Part shown: positions 9,096 through 27,500 of the stretch, piece after piece | Numbering within the stretch: the first letter of the stretch is position 1 | Layout of the letters: each line of letters opens with the position of its first letter | Assembly: GCA_000004985.1 (NCBI GenBank) | Contig: GG738864.1 | Origin: Naegleria gruberi | Lineage: Eukaryota | DNA: 64,000 nt | Strand: one strand, 5' to 3' | Program-made: the position numbers and the translations under genes | The notes under the pieces: generated by a model | Told to the model about the DNA's origin: nothing | Database searches by the model: none | The model's input: the letters and a program-made list of their open reading frames with translations, nothing else

Positions 9096-9340
9096 TTTTT
9101 TTTAAATGGTTTGATGACACGTGACAGTTTGTTAAGTGGATGAACAGATATGAGTGAAAGGCAAGATTGAGGATGATGATCTGGTGACACACTAGTAGGG
9201 TAAATGAAACGAATCGTTTTTTAACATTGTTTACAATTATAAATATTTTTGTAACATGTTAAATATGTTTAAATATGTTTAACATATATTTAATTGCCTT
9301 TTATCAAGTATTTAACAAATATTTAAATATTTTAAAAAAA

Positions 9341-10219
9341 ATGAACAAAAGCCAACCACAAGAATTTATTCATCAAAATAGCAACAAAGAATTTAAAGAT
9401 GATAATGATGAAAAAGTAAAAACAATTAAAACTCAAGTCGGAGTGGATAATATTGCAATTTCAAAGAGTTCGGAATATTCTCTTTTTGATTGGTTTAATT
9501 ATTGGTTTAGGGGAATTACCTTGTCTGTTTCAACATTTGGAGCAGTGAGTAATCCTCATAAATATATTGAAAAACAAGGAGATTTATTACCTGATAGGCT
9601 GTCTCATGATTTCTATTCGAGAATTTATCGATTTAATAAGGAGGAGTATGTGGATGCTATTGTAAATGCAAAAGATGATGTACATGCCCCACTCACTCAC
9701 AACTATGAAGATTGCATGCAAGCAAGGAGAGGAATGACAATATTTGGAGTCGTCTCGGGTGGAATTTTTGGATCTGCCTTTGCCTATGCAAAGAATTTTG
9801 GTACAATTACCAATAGAAAGAGATATTTGCCTTATACATTGAGTGGAGTGTTGATTGGATTTACAATGTTTAGATTTGTGATTGCTCCAAGAACTGAGAG
9901 TTGTTTTGAGCAAATTATAAATCAAGCTCTTTCAGAGAGAATTATTACAAAGGGATACAATAACATGATGGAATACTATAAACAAAACGAGAAACCAAAG
10001 ATGGTGAATTGGAGTGACTATGAACTCGATAAGGAGCAACAGGACTATCTCAATACCAAAATGAGAGAACACATGCTCAATGCAATGAAGAAGGCTGGAT
10101 GTAATAAGGAAAGTATTGAATCTTTCACTGATGGTAATGAACTGGTGTGGAAGCAACATTTGGATGTCAATTTTAAAAGAAAATATCCATCTCATAGAAA
10201 GTATTTCGAGTTTTTATAA
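9341..10219 (+). CDS. Hypothetical membrane protein
   Basis: ORF with ATG at 9341; an upstream in-frame ATG at 9275 sits in low-complexity sequence. There are two hydrophobic segments (GMTIFGVVSGGIFGSAFAYA and YTLSGVLIGFTMFRFVIA). No family recognised. Confidence 0.4.
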   Translation: MNKSQPQEFIHQNSNKEFKDDNDEKVKTIKTQVGVDNIAISKSSEYSLFDWFNYWFRGITLSVSTFGAVSNPHKYIEKQGDLLPDRLSHDFYSRIYRFNKEEYVDAIVNAKDDVHAPLTHNYEDCMQARRGMTIFGVVSGGIFGSAFAYAKNFGTITNRKRYLPYTLSGVLIGFTMFRFVIAPRTESCFEQIINQALSERIITKGYNNMMEYYKQNEKPKMVNWSDYELDKEQQDYLNTKMREHMLNAMKKAGCNKESIESFTDGNELVWKQHLDVNFKRKYPSHRKYFEFL

Positions 10220-16055: not shown

Positions 16056-16173
16056 GGCTACGGCCATATCACGATGAATGCACCTCATCCCGTCCGATTT
16101 GAGAAGTTAAGCATCGTCGAGCCACATCAGTACTGAGGTTGGAGACAACTTGGGAACCTGTGGTGCTGTAGTC
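16056..16173 (+). rRNA. 5S ribosomal RNA
   Basis: The 118-nt sequence GGCTACGGCCATATCACG...GGGAACCTGTGGTGCTGTAGTC aligns by eye to the eukaryotic 5S consensus. The terminal helix I pairs and a T6 run follows directly. Confidence 0.9.
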
Positions 16174-16288
16174 TTTTTTATTTAACATTTTTTTATTCTG
16201 CCTTAATAAACTGTATTGTCTAGACTTTCTTTGAAACTGAATTTACGTGAATTTATTCGGCTGGAACTTGATTTTTACCACCTTATTA
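16126..16288 (+). repeat. Left arm of inverted duplication (5S 3' portion plus downstream flank)
   Basis: This arm aligns by eye to the reverse complement of 17488-17636. Shared blocks are atcagtactgaggtt(g/a)gagacaacttgg(g)aacctgtg, ttatt(ctg/cca)ccttaataaact, ttctttgaa and ttaccaccttatta. Confidence 0.7.
16174..16179 (+). terminator. Pol III oligo-T terminator of the 5S gene
   Basis: TTTTTT immediately after the 5S 3' end. Confidence 0.7.
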
Positions 16289-17393: not shown

Positions 17394-17466
17394 GCCGACA
17401 TAGCTCAGTTGGGAGAGCGTAAGACTGAAGATCTTAAGGTCCCTGGTTCGATCCCTGGTGTCGGCA
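17394..17466 (+). tRNA. tRNA-Phe (anticodon GAA)
   Basis: A 73-nt cloverleaf: acceptor GCCGACA/TGTCGGC plus discriminator A, D arm GCTC-AGTTGGGA-GAGC, anticodon arm TAAGA-CTGAAGA-TCTTA, and T arm CCTGG-TTCGATC-CCTGG with one T:T mismatch. An oligo-T run follows. Confidence 0.85.
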
Positions 17467-17864: not shown

Positions 17865-18881
17865 TCAAATAACACCAATATCAAGTGATGTTAATTGTTT
17901 CATTTCACTTATGAATTTGGATCCTTCTACACCAATTTGATTGTAAGTAATGTCAAGTGATGTTAATTGTTTCATTTCACTTATGAATTTGGCTCCTTCT
18001 ACACCAATTTGATTGCCAGTAATATTAAGTGTTAATTGTTTCATTTCACTTATAAATTTGGATCCTTCTACACCAATTTGATTGTAACCAATATTAAGTG
18101 ATGTTAATTGTTTCATTTCACTTATATATTTGGATCCCTCTACACCAATCCCATTATAATATATATCAAGTGATGTTAATTGTTTCATTTCACTTATGTA
18201 TTTGGCTCCTTCTACACCAATTTGATTGTAACCAATATTAAGTGATGTTAATTGTTTCATTTCACTTATATATTTGGTTCCCTCTACACCAATTCCATTA
18301 TAATATATATTAAGTGATGTTAACTGTTTCATTTCACTTATGTATTTGGATCCTTCTACACCAATTTGATTGTAAGTAATGTCAAGTGATGTTAATTGTT
18401 TCATTTCACTTATGTATTTGGCTCCTTCTACACCAATTTGATTATCAGAAATATAAAGTGATGTTAATTGTTTCATTTCACTTATGAATTTAACTTTATC
18501 TGGAGAGTTACGCAACCTATAACAAAACTTAACATTTACAATACTATTCTTGAATTGGCTTTTCATAAACAATTCAATTCTATTTTCTGTAAATTGTTTT
18601 TTAAATTGAATAACAAGTCTTGAACGTTCCCGGATCACATTAAAGAATTGTTTTGAAATTAAAGAACAATTATTCAAAATAAACCACGAATCATCAATCA
18701 TGGAAATTATGTCAAAACAAACATCATCTGAAAATATATCTTGTTGGAGTTTCACAACTTTTTTTGCTTTCTCTTTCATCGAATAATTATCATTAATCAA
18801 TAGCTCCTCCGAAATTAATTGATTTGCAAAATCTTGGCTGATTCGTTTGCTCATTTTTTTATTACTAATAGTTTTCTTCAT
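17865..18881 (-). CDS. Leucine-rich-repeat protein with possible degenerate F-box-like N-terminus
   Basis: 338-aa ORF. The C-terminal 210 aa are 8.5 near-identical 24-residue units of the form ISEMKQLTSL(D/N)IxYNxIGVEG(A/S/T)K(Y/F). Confidence 0.75.
   Translation of the reverse strand: MKKTISNKKMSKRISQDFANQLISEELLINDNYSMKEKAKKVVKLQQDIFSDDVCFDIISMIDDSWFILNNCSLISKQFFNVIRERSRLVIQFKKQFTENRIELFMKSQFKNSIVNVKFCYRLRNSPDKVKFISEMKQLTSLYISDNQIGVEGAKYISEMKQLTSLDITYNQIGVEGSKYISEMKQLTSLNIYYNGIGVEGTKYISEMKQLTSLNIGYNQIGVEGAKYISEMKQLTSLDIYYNGIGVEGSKYISEMKQLTSLNIGYNQIGVEGSKFISEMKQLTLNITGNQIGVEGAKFISEMKQLTSLDITYNQIGVEGSKFISEMKQLTSLDIGVI
17868..18490. repeat. 72-bp tandem repeat array (coding LRR units)
   Basis: About 8.5 head-to-tail copies of a 72-bp unit with high nucleotide identity. 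One unit carries an in-frame 3-nt deletion (LTLNI in place of LTSLNI). Confidence 0.8.
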
Positions 18882-19583: not shown

Positions 19584-19715
19584 GGCTACTCCTTCTTTGG
19601 AAACTCGTTAATCATATTTCTTTCCAAAATTATTAATTGACTGAGCAAGTACAAGTTTTGAAATCTATAAATTGTGGAAAGTAAAAAATTAAAAACAGAA
19701 TACAAAGAAAACAAA

Positions 19716-20114
19716 ATGAAAAGATTTATTTCAATTCTATTAATTGCATTGACGTTAACAGTTCTTGCTCTTTCATTCACATCAGGAGTTAGTGCCACCA
19801 CTGAAGAACAAGCATCAACTCTCTCCTTGTATATTAGAAAGTATGGAAATAAGAAGAGAAATCTCAAGAAATACAGATTAAAGAAGAGAAAGAACAACAG
19901 AAAGCTCAACAAGTACATTGATACCTATGGAAGAAAGAGAAGAGGATCAAAGAGATTAGGAAAGAGGAGAATTATCAGAAAGAAGGTTGATGTTTATGGA
20001 AAGAAGAGAAGATTGAATAAGAAGAGAAGAATTGATACCTATAGAAAGAAGAATAGAAAGAATAAAAGAGGAGGAAAGAGAAATAAGAAGGTTGATATCT
20101 ATAAGCGTAAATAG
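19716..20114 (+). CDS. Secreted, extremely basic repeat protein
   Basis: ATG at 19716. The predicted signal peptide is MKRFISILLIALTLTVLALSFTSGVSA. The mature part is about half Lys/Arg, with repeated (I/V)D(T/V/I)Y and YG(K/R)(K/R)RR units. Confidence 0.6.
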   Translation: MKRFISILLIALTLTVLALSFTSGVSATTEEQASTLSLYIRKYGNKKRNLKKYRLKKRKNNRKLNKYIDTYGRKRRGSKRLGKRRIIRKKVDVYGKKRRLNKKRRIDTYRKKNRKNKRGGKRNKKVDIYKRK

Positions 20115-20486
20115 AATTTCCTTAAATTTTGTAATTATGAGTAATAAACGTGTGATTCCATTCAATCTTGTTTAACATGAGGCCTTAGAGTCTGAAAACT
20201 TGAATAAATGTTTGGAAGTTTGAATCATGTATAAAAATTCCTTTGGAATGTTTGCACTCCTCAAGCATGGAATAACAAAGAATGTATGTCCATGCACTCT
20301 TAGTCACTCCCGACGGTCTGTCTTAGGGCGTACAAATTTTTCCTCACTAACTGCGTACTATCTCTCTATTTTTATTTAAAAGGCCATTAATCGAAAACCT
20401 CAAATGAAACCAATAACAAAAAAAACTAATCAATTGATTAACTGTTAATAATAGTCATCTATTTAGCTCAAAATATTGAAAAAATC

Positions 20487-21410
20487 ATGTCCGCCTCATC
20501 AAATTCTAATAATTATTCATCTGTTGTAATTGCAGGAGCAAGTGGTAATCTTGGTAACCAAATTGTTAAAGCTTTTCTCAATCAACCAAATGTTAGAACT
20601 CATATTCTTGTTAGAAATGAAAGCAAACACAAGGTTGAAGAATTGATCAAGTTGGGAGCTCACATTATTGAGGGAGATGTAACAACCTCAAGTGTTGAAG
20701 AGTTGGCTCAATCATTCAAAGGAATTGAAGTTATTGTTAGTGCACTTTCTGGTGATCATTCAGTTGTTTTTGATGGTCAACTGAAATTATTGAATGCTGC
20801 CAAGTTGAGTGGGGTTAAAAAGTTTGTTCCTTCAAGTTACGGTTTCAATTTCCAAGATTATTTGCAATTAGGTGATAGTTTACTCATTGATCCAAAGAAG
20901 AAATTGATTAATGATTTGCAATCTCAAAACCAAGTTGACTATCTATTGATTCACAATGGTTTATTCTATAGTTATGCTTTCTTTCCAGGTTTCCTATTCC
21001 AAAAGGAAAATGACACTATTAAATACTATGGAGATTTGAATGTCAAAATCCAATTGACTGACACTTTAGATATTGCCAAGTATGTTGTCGAAGCATCTTT
21101 GAATCCACAATTAAAGAACAAATCCATCAACGTTGCTGGTGATGAAAAGACCTTGGAAGAATTAGCTCACTTGAGTTTCCCTCAAACTCAACTCAAATTT
21201 GAAAAGTTGGGATCCGCCCAAGATTTGAAGAATCTCATCCAGAAAGAAATTCAACAAGGATTGAAACCAGAACAAATTGGTCCAATTATTTATCAACAAT
21301 TACAATGGATTGCAATTTCAGGAGTTGCACATCCACCAAAAACTGATAACGATCTCTTCAATGTTAAACCACTTTCATTGAATGATTATGTAAAAAATCA
21401 AAAACAATAA
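20487..21410 (+). CDS. NmrA-like / isoflavone-reductase-like NAD(P)-binding protein
   Basis: 307-aa ORF with N-terminal VVIAGASGNLGNQIVKAFL (GxxGxxG). Length and pattern are typical of the NmrA/PCBER family. Confidence 0.65.
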   Translation: MSASSNSNNYSSVVIAGASGNLGNQIVKAFLNQPNVRTHILVRNESKHKVEELIKLGAHIIEGDVTTSSVEELAQSFKGIEVIVSALSGDHSVVFDGQLKLLNAAKLSGVKKFVPSSYGFNFQDYLQLGDSLLIDPKKKLINDLQSQNQVDYLLIHNGLFYSYAFFPGFLFQKENDTIKYYGDLNVKIQLTDTLDIAKYVVEASLNPQLKNKSINVAGDEKTLEELAHLSFPQTQLKFEKLGSAQDLKNLIQKEIQQGLKPEQIGPIIYQQLQWIAISGVAHPPKTDNDLFNVKPLSLNDYVKNQKQ

Positions 21411-21745: not shown

Positions 21746-24493
21746 ATGAACATTCTCTTCTTGGTTGATACATCTTCATCGATGAATCAACTCACAACCA
21801 ATGGGATGAAATTGATTGATATTTCCAAGCATTGTATTGAACATTTCATCAAGAATAGACAAAAACATTTAATGCACCAACAAAAAAGGGATAATTATCT
21901 ATTGGTAACATCTGGACAAAAGGTAGTTGTTGGATGGAAAGATGCCACGGAATCATCATGTTTCCTTCAAAGATTGAAATCCCTAAAGGCTAATGATTTG
22001 ACTGAAATTGGGCCATCTTTGAAAAAGTCTTTTGATGTTTTAAATCAACATCGGCTTCAAAAAGGAGTGGACCATTATGGCATGGGAAGACATGCAAGTG
22101 CTGTAGAAAATTCTGCTATTGTTTTAATTACGGATGGTGAAAGATTAACTCAATCTGTTAATCCATTCGACCAAAGAGTATTTGTAAATCAATTTTTGGA
22201 TGCCAACAAATTGACACTCCCTAATCCACATTCATATTCTACAAAATTGACAGAGGAACCATTTAGATGGGATCAAAGAGTGTTCAGTATTATTTTACAA
22301 TTTCAAGCTGTTGGTACTTCTTTGACAACTGTTTCTCCATCAGCTTCACTTAATCCCTCATTGGCCAATCAACAACAACAACAAGCCAATTTGACAAATC
22401 AAACACCAACTATTACAGATAATCCAATAGCTCCAATAAGTGAAGTTACAGGTGGCTTATCGAGAACTTTCTCAAATATGGTTTCTCTCCTAAAATTTAT
22501 GGATGATTTATCTGGTGTTCAGCTTGCTAGACCTTCAGTGGTTGTAAATTTTGACATTGTAAAAACATTGAATAATAAGCAATCCAGTGTTTTCCCTCCA
22601 ACAAATAATGAGGGTCTAGGAAAAACTGTACTACAATATATTACTCAACCTCAGCAAAGAGAATCCTTTTGGCCAATACCAGAGAACTATCTTCCAGGTG
22701 CTAACATGACAGAACTGCCAACAAGAAGAGCTCAACCATCTATTTCTTTACTATATACTGAAAAGAATGATATTCTTTTGACAATGGCTCTTAACAAATT
22801 CCCAATTTATGATATTTTTGAAATCAGTACTCAAAGTCCAATTGGAAAATATGTTATTCAACAGTCAAGCAGAGAAGGATGCTATAAAGCCTTTGTAACA
22901 AACAGTACTCCGAGTAATTATGGATTTGGAGAAAGTTTTGGATTTTTAAAGAAGATTGCTGTCCAAAATAGTACTGGAGAAGTTGAAAATAAGATTTATT
23001 TCTACCTTCTGCCATATAACTTTTTGAGATTATTTTATTTGATGAATGAGTTTGTTGTAACCCACAAGTCTCAACCCTCAGCTGCTTGGATCCAACAGTT
23101 CCATAAATTTGTACAGAATCTCCCTGCCTACTATATCAAACCACTTAAATCAGCGATGAACAAATGGTTTGGAGCATTTGCCCATTTCCCTGATGTACCT
23201 TACGAACTACCAAGCTCATTACAACTCTATTACAAGCAACTAGTTGATGAGGAGAAACGATTTAACAAAGATATGGAATTAGAGGAAAGTGGATCATCTA
23301 CCAATGTAAATTTACCAAATGACTCACTTCCAAAAAATGACGACCAAATGCAAGATCCTCCATCCTTCCCAATAATCAGTTTCACAAATCCATATGTTGC
23401 CAAAAAGGAAACCAATAATTTAATTAGAAATCCATTCGATATCGACAAAACATCACTCCTGAAACAAATGAAAATGATGAGCCAGTACCTTTTCCATTCA
23501 GTTGTTGTAGAAGTTCCAGAAGATGCTGACCATTCTAAAATACCTTTGGATCAACATTTAAGAGATTTATCAAAAGAAGAAATTAAGAAACACTCCACTC
23601 CAATATCTCAAATGGGTAACTTTGATAAGGTATTATTGTCTAAGGAGGTTTTGAGAGACCCATTCGAGCCTCAAAAGCAGAAACAAGTCAACTTTGGAAG
23701 CCCATATCAGAAAAAGAAAAAGAGATTGAGATCAATTCATATGAACGCCCCATTACTTCTCGATAAATTAGTTGATGAATCTGAGATGGATCTGAAACAA
23801 AAGGAGGAGGAAGAATCATCAGAATTTGATGCAAAGGTGGAATCAATGCTCTTATTAGAACCAAACATTGCCGATTCAAATGTATCATCAATACCAGTTG
23901 AACCTAGTTCAGCTCCACTTGAAACACACGAACCTTTTGAAACAGAGTTAGAAAAGATTGAACCAGTTCCACCAATTATTGAAGATGCTGTTCCAATTAT
24001 TGTAGATGATGTAATACCTGACCAATATGCAGCCCTAACACAAAGTAGTACTAAGCCACAATCCCCTACCTCAAATCTTCCTGGTAAAGCGGCCAATTTT
24101 AGACCTCCATCAACCAATAGAAAATCTAAAGCTAATCCTCAAAAAGAACATGCTCAATTATTTGTTGATAGTTTCCAAAACAACCATGAATGTTTACAAT
24201 TTGTTTCTCAACTTCCTGACCCTTTACTTTCAGCTGTTGTGACGAGAGTAATGCAACAAGAATTAACAGATGGCAAAAAGAAACAACAACTAGATGCCAT
24301 TAGATCAAAGATAAGAAAAAGAAAACGTAAAGACATGGAAGAATTGGAAGAAGCAAAAGATATTACTTCTGATATTAATAAGGTTCATTTCCCAACTAGA
24401 GAAAGTAGGACAGTCTTTGTTAGAGAAATAATCGCTATAGCCGCTTTATTTAAAAAAACCAAACTAGCTCAATTATTGACAGAAGAGCTCTAA
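21746..24493 (+). CDS. Integrator complex subunit 6-like protein (N-terminal VWA domain)
   Basis: 915-aa ORF. The start MNILFLVDTSSSMNQ plus AIVLITDGERLT gives a VWA MIDAS-like pattern, as at the INTS6/DDX26 N-terminus. The conserved-looking C-terminal block is REIIAIAALFKKTKLAQLL. Confidence 0.6.
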   Translation: MNILFLVDTSSSMNQLTTNGMKLIDISKHCIEHFIKNRQKHLMHQQKRDNYLLVTSGQKVVVGWKDATESSCFLQRLKSLKANDLTEIGPSLKKSFDVLNQHRLQKGVDHYGMGRHASAVENSAIVLITDGERLTQSVNPFDQRVFVNQFLDANKLTLPNPHSYSTKLTEEPFRWDQRVFSIILQFQAVGTSLTTVSPSASLNPSLANQQQQQANLTNQTPTITDNPIAPISEVTGGLSRTFSNMVSLLKFMDDLSGVQLARPSVVVNFDIVKTLNNKQSSVFPPTNNEGLGKTVLQYITQPQQRESFWPIPENYLPGANMTELPTRRAQPSISLLYTEKNDILLTMALNKFPIYDIFEISTQSPIGKYVIQQSSREGCYKAFVTNSTPSNYGFGESFGFLKKIAVQNSTGEVENKIYFYLLPYNFLRLFYLMNEFVVTHKSQPSAAWIQQFHKFVQNLPAYYIKPLKSAMNKWFGAFAHFPDVPYELPSSLQLYYKQLVDEEKRFNKDMELEESGSSTNVNLPNDSLPKNDDQMQDPPSFPIISFTNPYVAKKETNNLIRNPFDIDKTSLLKQMKMMSQYLFHSVVVEVPEDADHSKIPLDQHLRDLSKEEIKKHSTPISQMGNFDKVLLSKEVLRDPFEPQKQKQVNFGSPYQKKKKRLRSIHMNAPLLLDKLVDESEMDLKQKEEEESSEFDAKVESMLLLEPNIADSNVSSIPVEPSSAPLETHEPFETELEKIEPVPPIIEDAVPIIVDDVIPDQYAALTQSSTKPQSPTSNLPGKAANFRPPSTNRKSKANPQKEHAQLFVDSFQNNHECLQFVSQLPDPLLSAVVTRVMQQELTDGKKKQQLDAIRSKIRKRKRKDMEELEEAKDITSDINKVHFPTRESRTVFVREIIAIAALFKKTKLAQLLTEEL

Positions 24494-24508: not shown

Positions 24509-27500
24509 TTATTCATTCAAAAATTCAAAACTTGACTCTTCTTGATTCTCAGTTTTTTCTTCCTCCTCATTTCCAGCAATGAAATCAAACGATGATTTTT
24601 CTTCGCTAACTGGTTCTGATTCAGTTGGTTCTATAGTTGATTCAATAATTGGGACTTGTTCAGTTGGTTCTTCATCTCCTGATGCGATAAAATCAAAGGA
24701 CGATTCCTCTTGTTTTGGTTCTTCTTCATTTTGAGACTCTTCAGAAATAAAATTGAAGGATGATGGTTCAGTTGTCTCTTCAGTTGGTTCTTCAACTTGC
24801 TTAGCTTCTTCAACAACTTCTTCAACTGGTTCTTCTTCAGTTTTAATAAAATCGAAAGAGGTTGATTCCTCAACTGCTTCATTATCGTTACTGTCATTGA
24901 AGGTTTGATATTCTTCAACATGTTGCTCTTCTTCTTGTGGAGCCTCACTAACAGTAGTAGTGGCAACGGCTTCTGTTGATTCTTCTACTTTTTCTTCCTT
25001 TTCAGTAACCTTTTCTTCTACCAACTCTTCTTCCACCTTTTCTTCCTTTGGTTCTTCAGGAGGAATTTGAGATTTCAATTCTTCAATTTTAGTTTTGACT
25101 TCTGCAATCTTAACCTTTGTTTCTTCCAATTGTTGGTCCAAAACTTCACATAAATCAAATTGCTCCTTTTCTAAAGCATCATTGATATTGTCATTAATCT
25201 TACTTTCTGATTTCTTCAATTCTTCAAGATTAGATTCTAATTTTACAAGCTTATCCTTTGGAGATAAATTTTCCTCAACAACTTTGACTTCATTAACTTG
25301 GACTTGTTGTTGTTGATTTGGAGATTGCTCTTCAACCTTTTCAATAACTGGAGTTTTAGGTTTTGGTACCTCTGGACTATTGATTGACTTTTTCATTTCG
25401 AGCAATTCCTCATCTGATAGTGAAATAATTGACTTAAGCTGTCTAACTTGATAATTGAAAAGAGCAATTAATTCATCAATAACATCAAATCTCAACTTGA
25501 GTTGTTCAGGTGCTTCAACTTCTAAAAGCTTTACGCGATTTTTTTCCAAGAAATCTATTCTCTTCAAACACAATCTAATGAATCGTTTAGAATCCACCTT
25601 ATCAACTTGTTCAAGTCTGTTGTGGGTAGCATCAAGTTCTTGGGTCAATCCTAGCTTTTGTTCCTCCAATTGTGTTTGTTCTTGCTTTAAGCTTGGGATA
25701 CTTGATTCAAGTTCCTGAATCAATTTGGTTAATTTATCGCTTTCTTCTTTACATTGAGCAGCTTCCTTAAATTTACGTGCTTTAGCATATTCAAGCTTGT
25801 CTGCCTGTACTTTTGGCAATCTATCATTTGCTCTTTGAAGTTGTTGAGTTGAGTTATCCAATTCCATTGAAACAGATGAGAGATGAGATTTGAGGGTAGA
25901 CAATTGTTGACTGAGAGCTCCTAATTCCTTAATTATTTGAGGTCTACTGTCATTAGGTGAACCTGGACATTCTTCCAGTTTATCCAATTTTTCAACCATG
26001 TCAATTATTTGTGAAACTCTTACTTGTTGGGTTTGTAGGTAGTCCTTGTATTGTCTCTTATCCATCATGGCATCATATTTCTTGGTTTCTTTGGTTTCAA
26101 TATTGGTCAAGTCCTTATTAAGAGTTGCAGAAAGTTTTTCAAACGAATCAACATCATCCAAATAATTTTGCTTTCTCTTTTGGAATTGTTCCTCATCATA
26201 AGATATCAACTTGAGTTGTTCATTAAAATCTTCCTCATACTTCTTGATTTTGTCTGTAACATCACTAAGTAAAGAAAGAACAGTCTTTTGTTCTGCTCTC
26301 TTTTCTTTCAACTTTCTTTCAAGTTCAGCAATTTCTCTAGAGATTTCTTCATTTTGATCTCTTAAATTATCTTCTTGAATTCTCAAATCCTTTGTAGAAT
26401 AATCAATTTGGTCAGTAATTCTTGTCTTTCTCTTTTGGAATTCATTCTCTTCCAATTTAATGCTTTCACCCATTCTCTTGATACGATTAGTTTCTGATTC
26501 TAATCTTTCACGACGTAATTCCTTCAATGGATTATTTTTCTTTAAAAAGTCATCATAATCCTTCTTTGTTGTTGTAAATGAGAAATCAACTCTTGAGTAA
26601 ACAAGATTGATTTCCTTCTTCATTTCAGTCAAAGTCTTAGAAATTGCAGAAATATAAGAATCGTTATTTTTCTCGGTCACTTGAATTTCTTCAATTTTTG
26701 TTCTCAACTCTGTTAATTCTTGTTCAATTTGTTCAGCCTTCTCGAATTCTTCCTGTTCAGTATATTCATCAAGTAATTGTTCGAGAGATTGAATTTTTTC
26801 TTGAAGAAGAGAGAATTGGTTCTCCTTCTTTTCATCAATCTTCTTTTGTTCTTCATCAAGCAATTTTGAAATTCTAGTTGAATATTTTGTAAGAGATGAA
26901 TTAATTGTAGACTTGATGTTTATCCAATCATTATCTACTGTTTCCTTTTCCTCCTCAATAGTTTCCGATTTGAAGGAATCTCTTCTTGTTGGTTTTTCCT
27001 CCTTGATTGATGTAACAACTGGACTTTCAATATGCTTTACAGGAGTAGAAGCTACAGGAGTTGAAGCAGAACCAACTTCAGAACTTGAACTACCTCTATC
27101 AAGTCTTCTTGGCTTGACTTGTAAAGAAGCAAAATCAATATCATCAGAAGGGCTTGAGGATTTTCTTGGTTCTGCAACTACTGGTGATGGTTTTAATTTT
27201 GGTTCCTCATCCTCAGTAGTCTTCAGAAATGATGAAATTGTAGAATCATCTTGTTCCTCATCCTCATTAGTATTACTATTGTTATTTGATTGAATGTGTG
27301 TTGTTAATTGAGAGCTGTGATTCAACTTAATATTATTTTCAATGTTTGAAAATGTTTTTTGAGCCATTGAATATTCTCTATCCAATTCATCACTTGTTTG
27401 ATCCAATTGTTTTAATTCTTCATCAACCTTGCTATTTTTTGCATTCTTTCTTCTTCCTTTTCCTACAGATCGATTGATTTTAATTTGACCAGGAATTGGT

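What the first reader, a model, noticed from the sequence alone, without database searches (positions are those of the whole stretch)
19716..20114. Signal-peptide-bearing polybasic repeat protein with Tyr-Gly-dibasic units (possible processed or antimicrobial peptide precursor)
A textbook signal peptide (MKRFISILLIALTLTVLALSFTSGVSA) is followed by about 105 residues that are roughly half Lys/Arg. They are organised around repeated (I/V)D(T/V/I)Y cores, three of them followed by Gly and then a multibasic run (YGNKKR, YGRKRR, YGKKRR). Gly followed by dibasic residues is the classical signature for prohormone-convertase cleavage plus C-terminal amidation. The overall charge also resembles cationic antimicrobial or nucleic-acid-binding secreted proteins. 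I recognise no family.
Basis: inference. Interest (0 to 1): 0.6.

Follow-up and report, generated by a model that had tools for sequence, protein, structure and literature searches.

The report
Naegleria-specific secreted polybasic protein gene
This is a real but unannotated gene of the amoeba Naegleria gruberi for a small secreted protein that is almost half lysine/arginine; it belongs to a six-copy family seen only in Naegleria, and its role is untested (probably binding or killing bacteria, possibly after being cut into short peptides).

Summary
Window 19716..20114 (+) is a 132-codon ORF in Naegleria gruberi DNA. It encodes a classical signal peptide followed by a 105-residue domain with 47% Lys/Arg, net charge about +43 and pI 11.7. 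Four (I/V)D(T/V/I)Y islands sit in that domain. This exact protein is not annotated. Five paralogues on other N. gruberi scaffolds are annotated as 'predicted protein', and three environmental relatives exist. Nothing else matched among 1.84 billion representative proteins.

The gene is real. The annotated frame has pN/pS 0.23 with no stops, against 0.5-1.4 with stops in the other five frames. ORF identity to a paralogue is 88%, against 62% and 43% in the flanks. A TATA-like box and an AATAAA are conserved, and AAG Lys codons are strongly preferred.

Across the family every Asp lies in an xDxY island, every Glu lies just after the predicted cleavage site, and there is no Cys. AlphaFold gives no fold, and no amphipathic helix is detectable.

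The 'Gly-dibasic amidation' reading is weak. Only two of the four cores carry Gly, the C-terminal core never does, and 30 dibasic pairs make the signature unspecific.

My best reading is a secreted, disordered polycation that binds polyanions and probably acts against bacteria. That function is inferred, not shown.

The parts
19665..19673 (+). TATA-like element CTATAAATT, about 50 nt upstream of the ATG
   Evidence: Read. Near-identical in the paralogous locus L002 (TCTTTAAATTG) and identical in the environmental relative L001 (CTATAAATT), while the surrounding 5' flank is only 62% identical. Promoter function is inferred.
19716..20114 (+). Complete intron-less CDS, 132 codons plus TAG, of an unannotated family member
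   Evidence: ORF. The exact product is absent from the 15-billion-protein collection. It is 83-88% identical to XP_002673524. The annotated frame has pN/pS 0.23, no stops and 25 of 43 differences at third codon positions.
19716..19796 (+). Signal peptide (residues 1-27), predicted cleavage after V-S-A
   Evidence: h-region mean Kyte-Doolittle 2.6. MKR..SILLIALTL is invariant, and V-x-(A/C/G) at -3/-1 is kept in all 8 family sequences. Against L002 it shows 10 synonymous and 3 non-synonymous differences. This is the only AlphaFold segment with pLDDT above 80. No dedicated signal-peptide predictor was available.
19797..19835 (+). Short acidic/neutral N-terminal piece of the mature protein (TTEEQASTLSLYI)
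   Evidence: All Glu of every family member lie within the first 1-4 predicted mature residues, and STLS is invariant. A role in keeping the N-in/C-out orientation at the translocon is inferred from the charge-difference rule.
19836..20111 (+). Polybasic domain (residues 41-132), with K/R runs of at most 4 separated by N, G, L, I and the xDxY islands
   Evidence: Composition. 25 of 29 Lys codons are AAG against 48% in the window's long ORFs (p=2e-5), and the longest A run is 4. AlphaFold gives pLDDT about 45-65 with no fold. No amphipathic moment exceeds the shuffles.
19917..19928 (+). xDxY core 1 (IDTY, residues 68-71), followed by G-RKRR
   Evidence: Part of DNA repeat families D1 and D3. 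Conserved in all N. gruberi paralogues and degenerate (KYIGKK) in L001/L003.
19986..19997 (+). xDxY core 2 (VDVY, residues 91-94), followed by G-KKRR
   Evidence: Present in the N. gruberi paralogues and deleted in L001/L003.
20031..20042 (+). xDxY core 3 (IDTY, residues 106-109), followed by RKK with no Gly
   Evidence: KRRIDTY is the best-conserved island, with D107, T108 and Y109 invariant. The next residue is R in four members and G in P0005, L001, L003 and P0011.
20091..20102 (+). xDxY core 4 (VDIY, residues 126-129), followed by KRK and the stop
   Evidence: The C-terminal KKVD(I/L/F)YK(R/K)K-stop is kept in the window copy, P0004-P0007, L001, L002 and L003, and is never followed by Gly.
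20143..20148 (+). AATAAA, 29 nt after the stop (putative polyadenylation signal)
   Evidence: Read. (G/A)AATAAA..TGTGA is conserved in L002 although the 3' flank is only 43% identical overall. Function is inferred.

Best explanation
Window 19716..20114 (+) is a real, intron-less, currently unannotated Naegleria gruberi gene. It belongs to a small family with at least six dispersed loci, so far seen only in N. gruberi and close environmental relatives.

Proposed mechanism, with each step marked:
1. The N-terminal 27 residues act as a cleavable ER signal peptide. This is inferred from the n/h/c architecture and from a V-x-small site conserved in all members.
2. The two or three Glu residues directly after the cleavage site keep the flank next to the signal peptide non-basic, so the chain inserts N-in/C-out despite the polybasic body (inferred).
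3. The mature protein is about 13 kDa with net charge about +43. It is intrinsically disordered, has no Cys and no N-glycosylation sequon, and leaves by the secretory route to the medium or to the food vacuole (inferred).
4. It acts electrostatically by coating polyanions such as bacterial envelopes, nucleic acids, polyphosphate or acidic polysaccharides. In a bacterivorous amoeba this most plausibly agglutinates or damages prey or competitor bacteria (inferred).
5. The xDxY islands are the only hydrophobic/aromatic patches and hold the only acidic residues in the basic domain. They are the constrained recognition, anchoring or processing points (inferred).

With 30 dibasic pairs the chain may well be cut into short cationic peptides on the way. 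That step is neither required nor shown.
For: Organism: the neighbouring ORF is XP_002677914 of N. gruberi.

Family: there are five annotated paralogues on five other scaffolds, plus L001, L002 and L003. No further relatives were found in 1.84e9 representatives, in 5.8e9 clusters, or in JGI metagenomes.

Coding in this frame:
- pN/pS is 0.23 with no stops, against 0.5-1.4 with 4-18 stops in the other five frames; the codon-alignment estimate is 0.17.
- The only indel against L002 is 3 nt.
- ORF identity is 88%, against 62% and 43% in the flanks.
- A TATA-like box and an AATAAA are conserved.
- AAG is used for 25 of 29 Lys codons (p=2e-5) and no A run exceeds 4. This fits selection for smooth translation of a Lys-rich product.

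Secretory route: the signal peptide is the most conserved segment, and -3/-1 is V-x-(A/C/G) in all 8 sequences.

Charge is selected: K+R is 42-47% and net charge +32 to +44 in every member. This holds even in the 45%-identical relatives, whose spacers differ in length and sequence.

Islands are constrained: 29 of 29 Asp lie in xDxY.

Disorder: pLDDT 59 and pTM 0.19, and no PDB relative at E<=10.

Precedent: Naegleria releases antimicrobial polypeptides (naegleriapores) from secreted polyproteins (Herbst 2004, as cited in PMC5850478).
Against: There is no expression, localisation or activity evidence of any kind. No paper cites the family's locus tags.

The protein lacks the amphipathic helix typical of membrane-active peptides: maximum hydrophobic moment 0.54 against 0.56 in shuffles. 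Only about 23% of residues are hydrophobic, so any antibacterial action would have to be of the protamine or polylysine type.

The strict conservation of xDxY is not explained by a purely electrostatic mechanism.

The polypurine codon bias (77% purine, GGA 8 of 8) could partly reflect slippage-driven expansion rather than selection for charge.

No dedicated signal-peptide predictor was available.
Confidence: 0.45

Rival explanations
1. The protein is a multi-copy precursor of very small signalling peptides. Kexin-like cleavage at the multibasic runs and carboxypeptidase trimming would release xDxY tetrapeptides (IDTY, VDVY, VDIY and variants). Those followed by Gly would be amidated to xDxY-NH2. 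The basic spacers would be discarded.
For: Every core is bracketed by [KR][KR] on both sides, except core 1 on its N side, in all members. The core is the most conserved element of the basic domain and holds all 29 Asp. Gly follows 2 of 4 cores here, 3 of 4 in P0005 and 3 of 5 in P0011. The number of cores varies from 2 to 5 between members, as in other polyprotein precursors (general point in PMC5850478). The signal peptide is highly conserved, as in many peptide-precursor families.
Against: The spacers are far more basic than cleavage sites require, and they keep that composition at 45% identity. Gly is not conserved: it alternates with Arg at core 3 and is never present at the C-terminal core. 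PAM is reported absent from excavates, although Naegleria is not named (PMC6529398). The presence of a dibasic-specific convertase in Naegleria was not established. The environmental relatives keep only two cores in a 112-residue mature chain, a poor payload yield.
Confidence: 0.2
2. The protein is a structural, adhesive or matrix polycation. It would be secreted to glue or condense acidic material such as cyst-wall or plug polysaccharide, substrate adhesion sites or luminal polyanions. The Lys/Tyr islands would serve for cross-linking or interfacial adhesion, as in Lys/Tyr-rich marine cement proteins or diatom silaffins.
For: It has a signal peptide plus a repetitive, disordered, Lys/Arg/Gly/Tyr-containing sequence with no Cys. 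Tyr is conserved in every island, and there are 8 Tyr in 105 residues. It forms a multi-copy, lineage-specific family, as is common for structural proteins.
Against: Tyr content (7.6%) is well below that of known Tyr/DOPA adhesives (comparison from my own knowledge). There is no Ser-rich or Gly-rich structural repeat. No link to encystment or adhesion could be tested. No tyrosinase or peroxidase partner was examined.
Confidence: 0.15
3. The protein is an intracellular basic protein (nucleolar, ribosome- or RNA-binding, or a membrane-anchored protein with a cytosolic polybasic tail). On this reading the hydrophobic N-terminus is not a cleaved secretory signal.
For: The polybasic composition resembles nuclear/nucleolar targeting and nucleic-acid-binding sequences (composition). 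No signal-peptide predictor or localisation data were available.
Against: The N-terminus is the most conserved part and has full n/h/c architecture, with V-x-small at -3/-1 in all 8 sequences. The flank just after it is acidic, and the N-terminal flank is basic (MKR). By the charge-difference rule this predicts N-in/C-out, so the basic body would be luminal. There is no match to any ribosomal or nuclear protein family in Pfam or PDB.
Confidence: 0.05
4. It is not a gene. The ORF would be a chance reading frame kept open by a polypurine tract, or the real product would be encoded antisense or in another frame.
For: The tract is 77% purine, which removes stop codons on both strands. Antisense ORFs of 110 and 69 aa overlap it. 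This copy is absent from the published annotation.
Against: Only the stated frame is stop-free and shows purifying selection: pN/pS 0.23 against 0.5-1.4. Start, stop, signal peptide and C-terminus are conserved in eight sequences, including a relative at saturated synonymous divergence (dS about 1). Indels are in frame. Conservation drops outside the ORF. Four paralogues were called as genes by the genome annotators.
Confidence: 0.02

Closest known systems
N. gruberi 'predicted proteins' XP_002673524 (NAEGRDRAFT_71365), XP_002673814 (_71069), XP_002676724 (_68008), XP_002676161 (_68479) and the N-terminal 133 residues of XP_002675247 (_50395)
   Same: These are true homologues (E 1e-58 to 1e-18). 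They share the signal peptide, the EE..STLS piece, a polybasic body with xDxY islands and a KKVDxYKRK C-terminus.
   Different: All are uncharacterised, and no paper mentions them. The window copy is a separate locus on another scaffold and is not annotated. _68479 lacks the signal peptide in its model. _50395 is fused in its model to a NOT2/3/5 C-terminal domain, which probably reflects a merged gene model.
Multi-copy prohormone/neuropeptide-type precursors (TRH precursor, FMRFamide precursors, yeast alpha-factor)
   Same: A signal peptide is followed by several copies of a short conserved core bracketed by basic residues, and Gly precedes the basic run in some copies.
   Different: No homology. 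The spacers are themselves about 70% K/R rather than neutral or acidic. Gly is not conserved. The cores are only 4 residues long. The processing enzymes are not shown in Naegleria, and PAM is reported absent from excavates. The comparison with the named precursors rests on my own knowledge.
Secreted cationic host-defence polypeptides with a conserved signal peptide, an acidic piece and a cationic body (Hydra arminins, amphibian dermaseptin-type precursors, mollusc molluscidins), and protamine- or polylysine-like polycations
   Same: The layout is a conserved signal peptide, a short acidic piece and then a very basic product. The pI is extreme. The composition is rich in dibasic repeats, as in molluscidin.
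   Different: No homology. The acidic piece is only 2-3 residues. The basic body is long (about 90 residues) and has no amphipathic helix. Activity is untested. The comparison rests on my own knowledge; molluscidin is mentioned as a conserved mollusc AMP in bioRxiv 10.64898/2026.08.23.746575.
Naegleriapore precursors (saposin-like antimicrobial polyproteins of Naegleria)
   Same: They come from the same genus and are secreted or vacuolar antimicrobial polypeptides released from a repeat-containing precursor (cited in PMC5850478).
   Different: Naegleriapores are Cys-rich saposin-fold domains. This protein has no Cys and no predicted fold. There is no sequence relationship.
Diatom silaffin precursor Sil1p and Lys/Tyr-rich marine cement proteins
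   Same: A signal peptide is followed by repeated Lys-rich units that each contain Tyr and are separated by multibasic sites. The proteins are disordered polycations that work by binding polyanions.
   Different: This protein has no Ser-rich units, much lower Tyr content and no known mineral or cement biology in Naegleria. The comparison rests on my own knowledge only.

Membership tests
Naegleria polybasic secreted protein family (uncharacterised; XP_002673524 and paralogues) | Significant full-length sequence similarity to the annotated members | tested here: met
   E 2e-58 to 1e-34 at 100% coverage, 66-88% identity. A profile search recovers the same set plus P0011.
Naegleria polybasic secreted protein family (uncharacterised; XP_002673524 and paralogues) | Shared architecture: MKR..SILLIALTL signal peptide, V-x-small cleavage site, EE/STLS piece, K/R body of at least 42% with xDxY islands, C-terminal KKVDxYK(R/K)K | tested here: met
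   All elements are present in the window copy and in 7 other sequences.
Amidated-peptide (prohormone-type) precursors | N-terminal signal peptide | tested here: met
   n/h/c architecture and a conserved -3/-1 site. No dedicated predictor was available.
Amidated-peptide (prohormone-type) precursors | Repeated payload bracketed by di- or multibasic cleavage sites | tested here: inconclusive
   The cores are bracketed by [KR][KR]. However, 30 dibasic pairs in 105 residues make this expected from composition alone.
Amidated-peptide (prohormone-type) precursors | Conserved Gly amide donor directly after each payload | tested here: not met
   Gly follows 2 of 4 cores in the window copy. It alternates with Arg at core 3 across members and is absent from the C-terminal core in all 8 sequences. 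The third YG is not conserved.
Amidated-peptide (prohormone-type) precursors | Processing machinery in the same genome (kexin/PC-type S8 protease with P domain, carboxypeptidase, PHM and PAL) | not testable with these tools
   No eukaryotic genome collection could be searched. A review reports PAM as absent from excavates, with Naegleria not named. Literature searches for a Naegleria kexin gave nothing decisive.
Cationic amphipathic antimicrobial peptides | High net positive charge in a secreted product | tested here: met
   Net charge about +43 and pI 11.7 after the signal peptide.
Cationic amphipathic antimicrobial peptides | Amphipathic helix or strand with a substantial hydrophobic face | tested here: not met
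   The maximum helical moment is 0.54 against a shuffle mean of 0.56, and the beta moment is below the shuffle mean. About 23% of residues are hydrophobic. The AlphaFold model has low confidence.
Cationic amphipathic antimicrobial peptides | Demonstrated antimicrobial activity | not testable with these tools
   This requires a synthetic or recombinant protein assay.
Any curated protein family or solved structure | Match to a Pfam model or a PDB sequence | tested here: not met
   Pfam gives only a sub-threshold hit of the signal peptide to LPAM_1 (E 0.05, below the cut-off). PDB gives 0 hits at E<=10.

The most novel reading that the evidence does not exclude
The family is a peptidergic signalling system in a heterolobosean amoeba. 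Each precursor would be cut at its multibasic runs to release several copies of an xDxY or xDxY-amide tetrapeptide. These peptides would act as an extracellular cue, for example for density sensing, chemotaxis, encystment or the amoeba-to-flagellate switch. This would extend prohormone-style multi-copy peptide precursors to Discoba.
Probability: 0.12. Interest if true: 0.75.

Novelty: new variant of a known kind. Interest (0 to 1): 0.4.

Why it matters
If the reading is right, a bacterivorous amoeba makes a lineage-specific family of secreted, protamine-like polycations. This would be a class of protist effector unrelated to the saposin-like naegleriapores, and one that trypsin-based proteomics would largely miss. 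A tryptic digest of the window copy leaves only three peptides of 6 residues or more.

The finding also adds a missing gene to the N. gruberi annotation. It flags two probably faulty gene models in the same family.

The conserved xDxY islands give a concrete, testable handle. They can be mutated or synthesised to decide between a polycation function and a tetrapeptide-precursor function. The second outcome would bear on how old prohormone-style processing is in eukaryotes.

As it stands, this is an orphan family with an inferred function. It is moderately interesting, not a breakthrough.

Tried and rejected
- Pfam on the ORF gave only a sub-threshold LPAM_1 hit to the signal peptide.
- The PDB sequence search gave 0 hits at E<=10.
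- AlphaFold2 with the family alignment gave pLDDT 59 and pTM 0.19. The model is not usable, so no fold search was run.
- tblastn of all family members against the window found no second copy in the 64 kb.
- The exhaustive profile search of 1.84e9 representatives found only the known members plus P0011.
- A second word-index search with a wider alignment found nothing new.
- The JGI metagenome scan matched 600 patterns but confirmed none.
- Genomic DNA of the N. gruberi paralogues P0004, P0005, P0006 and P0011 was not on record. The DNA comparisons therefore used the metagenomic loci L001-L003.
- Literature searches found no paper with the family's locus tags. A Naegleria plus PAM search gave nothing relevant. 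A Naegleria plus kexin search gave nothing decisive. One search was badly specified and wasted.
- The proteomics supplement of PMC9035749 gave only chance numeric hits, and the file is truncated.
- The test for an amphipathic helix or strand was negative.
- The test for avoidance of long K/R runs showed a trend (maximum 4 against a shuffle mean of 5.5-6.4) but was not significant (P 0.08-0.5).
- The antisense and alternative-frame readings were rejected by six-frame pN/pS and stop counts.
- Rfam found no RNA family in the ORF region.

Full report
**What is there.** The window is Naegleria gruberi nuclear DNA. The ORF just downstream (20487..21410, NmrA-like) is identical to XP_002677914 / NAEGRDRAFT_66903 on a 442-kb scaffold. 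The window averages about 33% G+C and carries typical Naegleria LRR_6 genes. At 19716..20114 (+) there is an ATG-to-TAG ORF of 132 codons. Its product starts with MKRFISILLIALTLTVLALSFTSGVSA, which has a basic n-region, an 18-residue h-region (mean Kyte-Doolittle 2.6) and V-S-A at -3 to -1. The remaining 105 residues contain 28 Lys and 21 Arg (47%) and only 4 Asp and 2 Glu. They contain no Cys, Trp, Pro or His. The pI is 11.7 and the net charge about +43.

Four xDxY islands occur at residues 68, 91, 106 and 126. None of 100,000 shuffles reaches four. The islands sit in diverged internal DNA repeats of about 45 nt, so they arose by duplication and are not independent events. Only two of the four islands are followed by Gly. 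The third 'YG' (RKYGNKKR) is not an island and is not conserved in the nearest paralogues.

**Is it a gene?** The exact protein is absent from a 15-billion-sequence collection that includes the N. gruberi annotation, so this locus is unannotated. It has clear relatives:
- four N. gruberi 'predicted proteins' on four other scaffolds: XP_002673524 at 83-88% identity, XP_002673814 at 66%, XP_002676724 at 70%, and XP_002676161;
- a fifth, more divergent copy that forms the first 133 residues of XP_002675247. The rest of that model is a NOT2/3/5 C-terminal domain, which is almost certainly a merged gene model;
- three metagenomic contigs. L002 is a strain variant of XP_002673524. L001 and L003 come from a related organism at about 45% identity.

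Comparing the window with L002 gives pS 0.28-0.30 and pN 0.06. In the annotated frame pN/pS is 0.23 (a codon-alignment estimate gives 0.17), there are no stops, and 25 of 43 differences are at third codon positions. The other five frames give 0.5-1.4 with 4-18 stops. The single indel is 3 nt. Identity is 88% in the ORF, 62% upstream and 43% downstream.

A CTATAAATT element 50 nt upstream of the ATG recurs in L002 and L001, and an AATAAA 29 nt after the stop recurs in L002. Lys is encoded by AAG in 25 of 29 cases, against 48% in the window's long ORFs (p=2e-5). No A run exceeds 4. I read this as avoidance of poly(A) tracks in a translated Lys-rich message, which is an inference from general knowledge. 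The overlapping antisense ORFs are by-products of the 77% purine tract. I conclude that the gene is real.

**Family anatomy.** These features hold in all eight sequences:
- MKR..SILLIALTL is invariant.
- Positions -3/-1 are V-x-(A/C/G).
- The predicted mature N-terminus carries every Glu of the protein within its first 1-4 residues, followed by an invariant STLS.
- K+R is 42-47% and net charge is +32 to +44.
- All 29 Asp lie in an xDxY island, and there is no Cys and no N-glycosylation sequon.
- All sequences whose C-terminus is available end in KKVD(I/L/F)YK(R/K)K-stop.

The signal peptide is the most conserved segment. Against L002 it has 10 synonymous and 3 non-synonymous changes. Against L001 its pN is 0.23, compared with 0.35 for the rest. 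The spacers between islands differ in length and sequence in L001/L003 but stay K/R/N/G-only, and the number of islands ranges from 2 to 5. The constrained features are therefore the secretory signal, the overall positive charge and the islands.

AlphaFold2 gives pLDDT 59 and pTM 0.19, with only the signal-peptide helix confident. No PDB or Pfam relative exists. The hydrophobic moment does not exceed shuffles. The mature protein is best described as a disordered polycation.

**Distribution.** An exhaustive HMMER profile search of 1.84 billion representatives found nothing beyond these sequences. Neither did a second index search or a scan of JGI metagenomes. No N. fowleri or N. lovaniensis protein appeared. 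Small unannotated ORFs in those genomes could not be checked with the tools available. No paper mentions any of the family's locus tags.

**How it most likely works.** Shown here: a conserved coding frame, a conserved signal-peptide-like N-terminus, a conserved extreme charge and conserved islands. Inferred: co-translational ER entry with cleavage after VSA. The EE patch keeps the flank next to the signal non-basic, so orientation follows the charge-difference rule. The protein is then exported to the medium or the food vacuole and binds polyanions electrostatically. In a bacterivore the obvious polyanions are bacterial envelopes. Naegleria is already known to release antimicrobial polypeptides from secreted polyproteins (Herbst 2004, cited in PMC5850478). 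I therefore favour a protamine- or polylysine-like antibacterial or agglutinating role at 0.45, with or without fragmentation at some of its 30 dibasic pairs. This does not explain why xDxY is so strictly kept. The islands may be anchoring, recognition or processing points.

**Rivals.**
It is supported by the basic bracketing and the strong conservation of the cores. It is weakened by non-conserved Gly, which alternates with Arg at core 3 and is absent from the C-terminal core in all members. It is also weakened by spacers far more basic than cleavage requires and by the low payload in L001/L003. A review states that excavates lack PAM, with Naegleria not named (PMC6529398). I could not establish whether Naegleria has a dibasic-specific convertase.
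- Structural, adhesive or matrix polycation (0.15). The composition is compatible, but Tyr content is modest and no link to encystment or adhesion could be tested.
- Intracellular basic protein (0.05). The conserved signal architecture argues against it.
- Not a gene (0.02). This is rejected.

**Comparison with known systems and novelty.** The locus is a bona fide member of an uncharacterised Naegleria family (membership tested and met). It fails one defining feature of amidated-peptide precursors, the conserved Gly donor. It fails one defining feature of classical cationic antimicrobial peptides, amphipathicity. It may still work like a polycationic host-defence protein. I rate it a new variant of a known kind, a secreted cationic polypeptide with no homology to any described one. 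Interest is 0.4: a real, odd, lineage-specific orphan family with a testable motif, but no evidence yet of an unusual mechanism.

**Practical note.** A tryptic digest of the window copy leaves only three peptides of 6 residues or more (TTEEQASTLSLYIR, YIDTYGR, VDVYGK), so standard proteomics would largely miss this protein. A look into one N. gruberi proteomics supplement was uninformative.

Noticed in passing
window 16056..16174 (+) and 17394..17466 (+): A full-length 5S rRNA gene (105 bits) and a tRNA-Phe(GAA) gene lie among protein-coding genes 2-3.5 kb upstream of the finding.
   Followed up: partly
P0011 = XP_002675247 / NAEGRDRAFT_50395 (another N. gruberi scaffold): The 565-aa gene model joins a family member (residues 1-133, signal peptide plus 5 xDxY islands) to a NOT2/NOT3/NOT5 C-terminal domain (residues 436-557). 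It is very probably two genes merged by the annotation.
   Followed up: partly
P0007 = XP_002676161 / NAEGRDRAFT_68479: The model has a non-homologous N-terminus (MVMGFRHTQTQTQTHTQ...) in place of the signal peptide. Either the 5' end is mis-modelled or the copy is truncated or a pseudogene.
   Followed up: no
L001 110..529 and L003 127..549 (ENA metagenome contigs): The deposited gene calls (163 and 164 aa) read through the TAG stop. The real ORFs are 139 and 140 aa and end in VD(F/L)YKKK, like the rest of the family. The two contigs differ by 14 non-synonymous and 1 synonymous changes, clustered near the C-terminal spacer. This is suggestive of diversification, but by my hand calculation it is not significant (binomial P about 0.19; counts).
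   Followed up: partly
window 20487..21410 (+): The NmrA-like neighbour shares a 90%-identity cluster with a second N. gruberi protein on a different scaffold (XP_002682502 / NAEGRDRAFT_62363, 254 aa). This hints at a recent duplication of this neighbourhood or gene.
   Followed up: no
window 17865..18881 (-) and 21746..24493 (+): The LRR_6 protein ORF and the 915-aa INTS6-like (VWA plus INTS6 beta-barrel) ORF are not in the protein collection with these exact sequences. The published gene models at these loci must therefore differ from the simple ORFs, for example in introns or alternative starts.
   Followed up: no
window 19586..19918 (-) and 19956..20165 (-): Antisense ORFs of 110 and 69 aa, rich in Phe/Leu/Ser, overlap the gene. 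L002 has an equivalent antisense ORF. They are open because the coding strand is 77% purine, and they show no purifying selection (pN/pS 0.5-1.4 with stops).
   Followed up: yes
window 24509..27406 (-) and 9275..10219 (+): Long ORFs of 965 and 314 aa have no Pfam match at E<=0.001.
   Followed up: no
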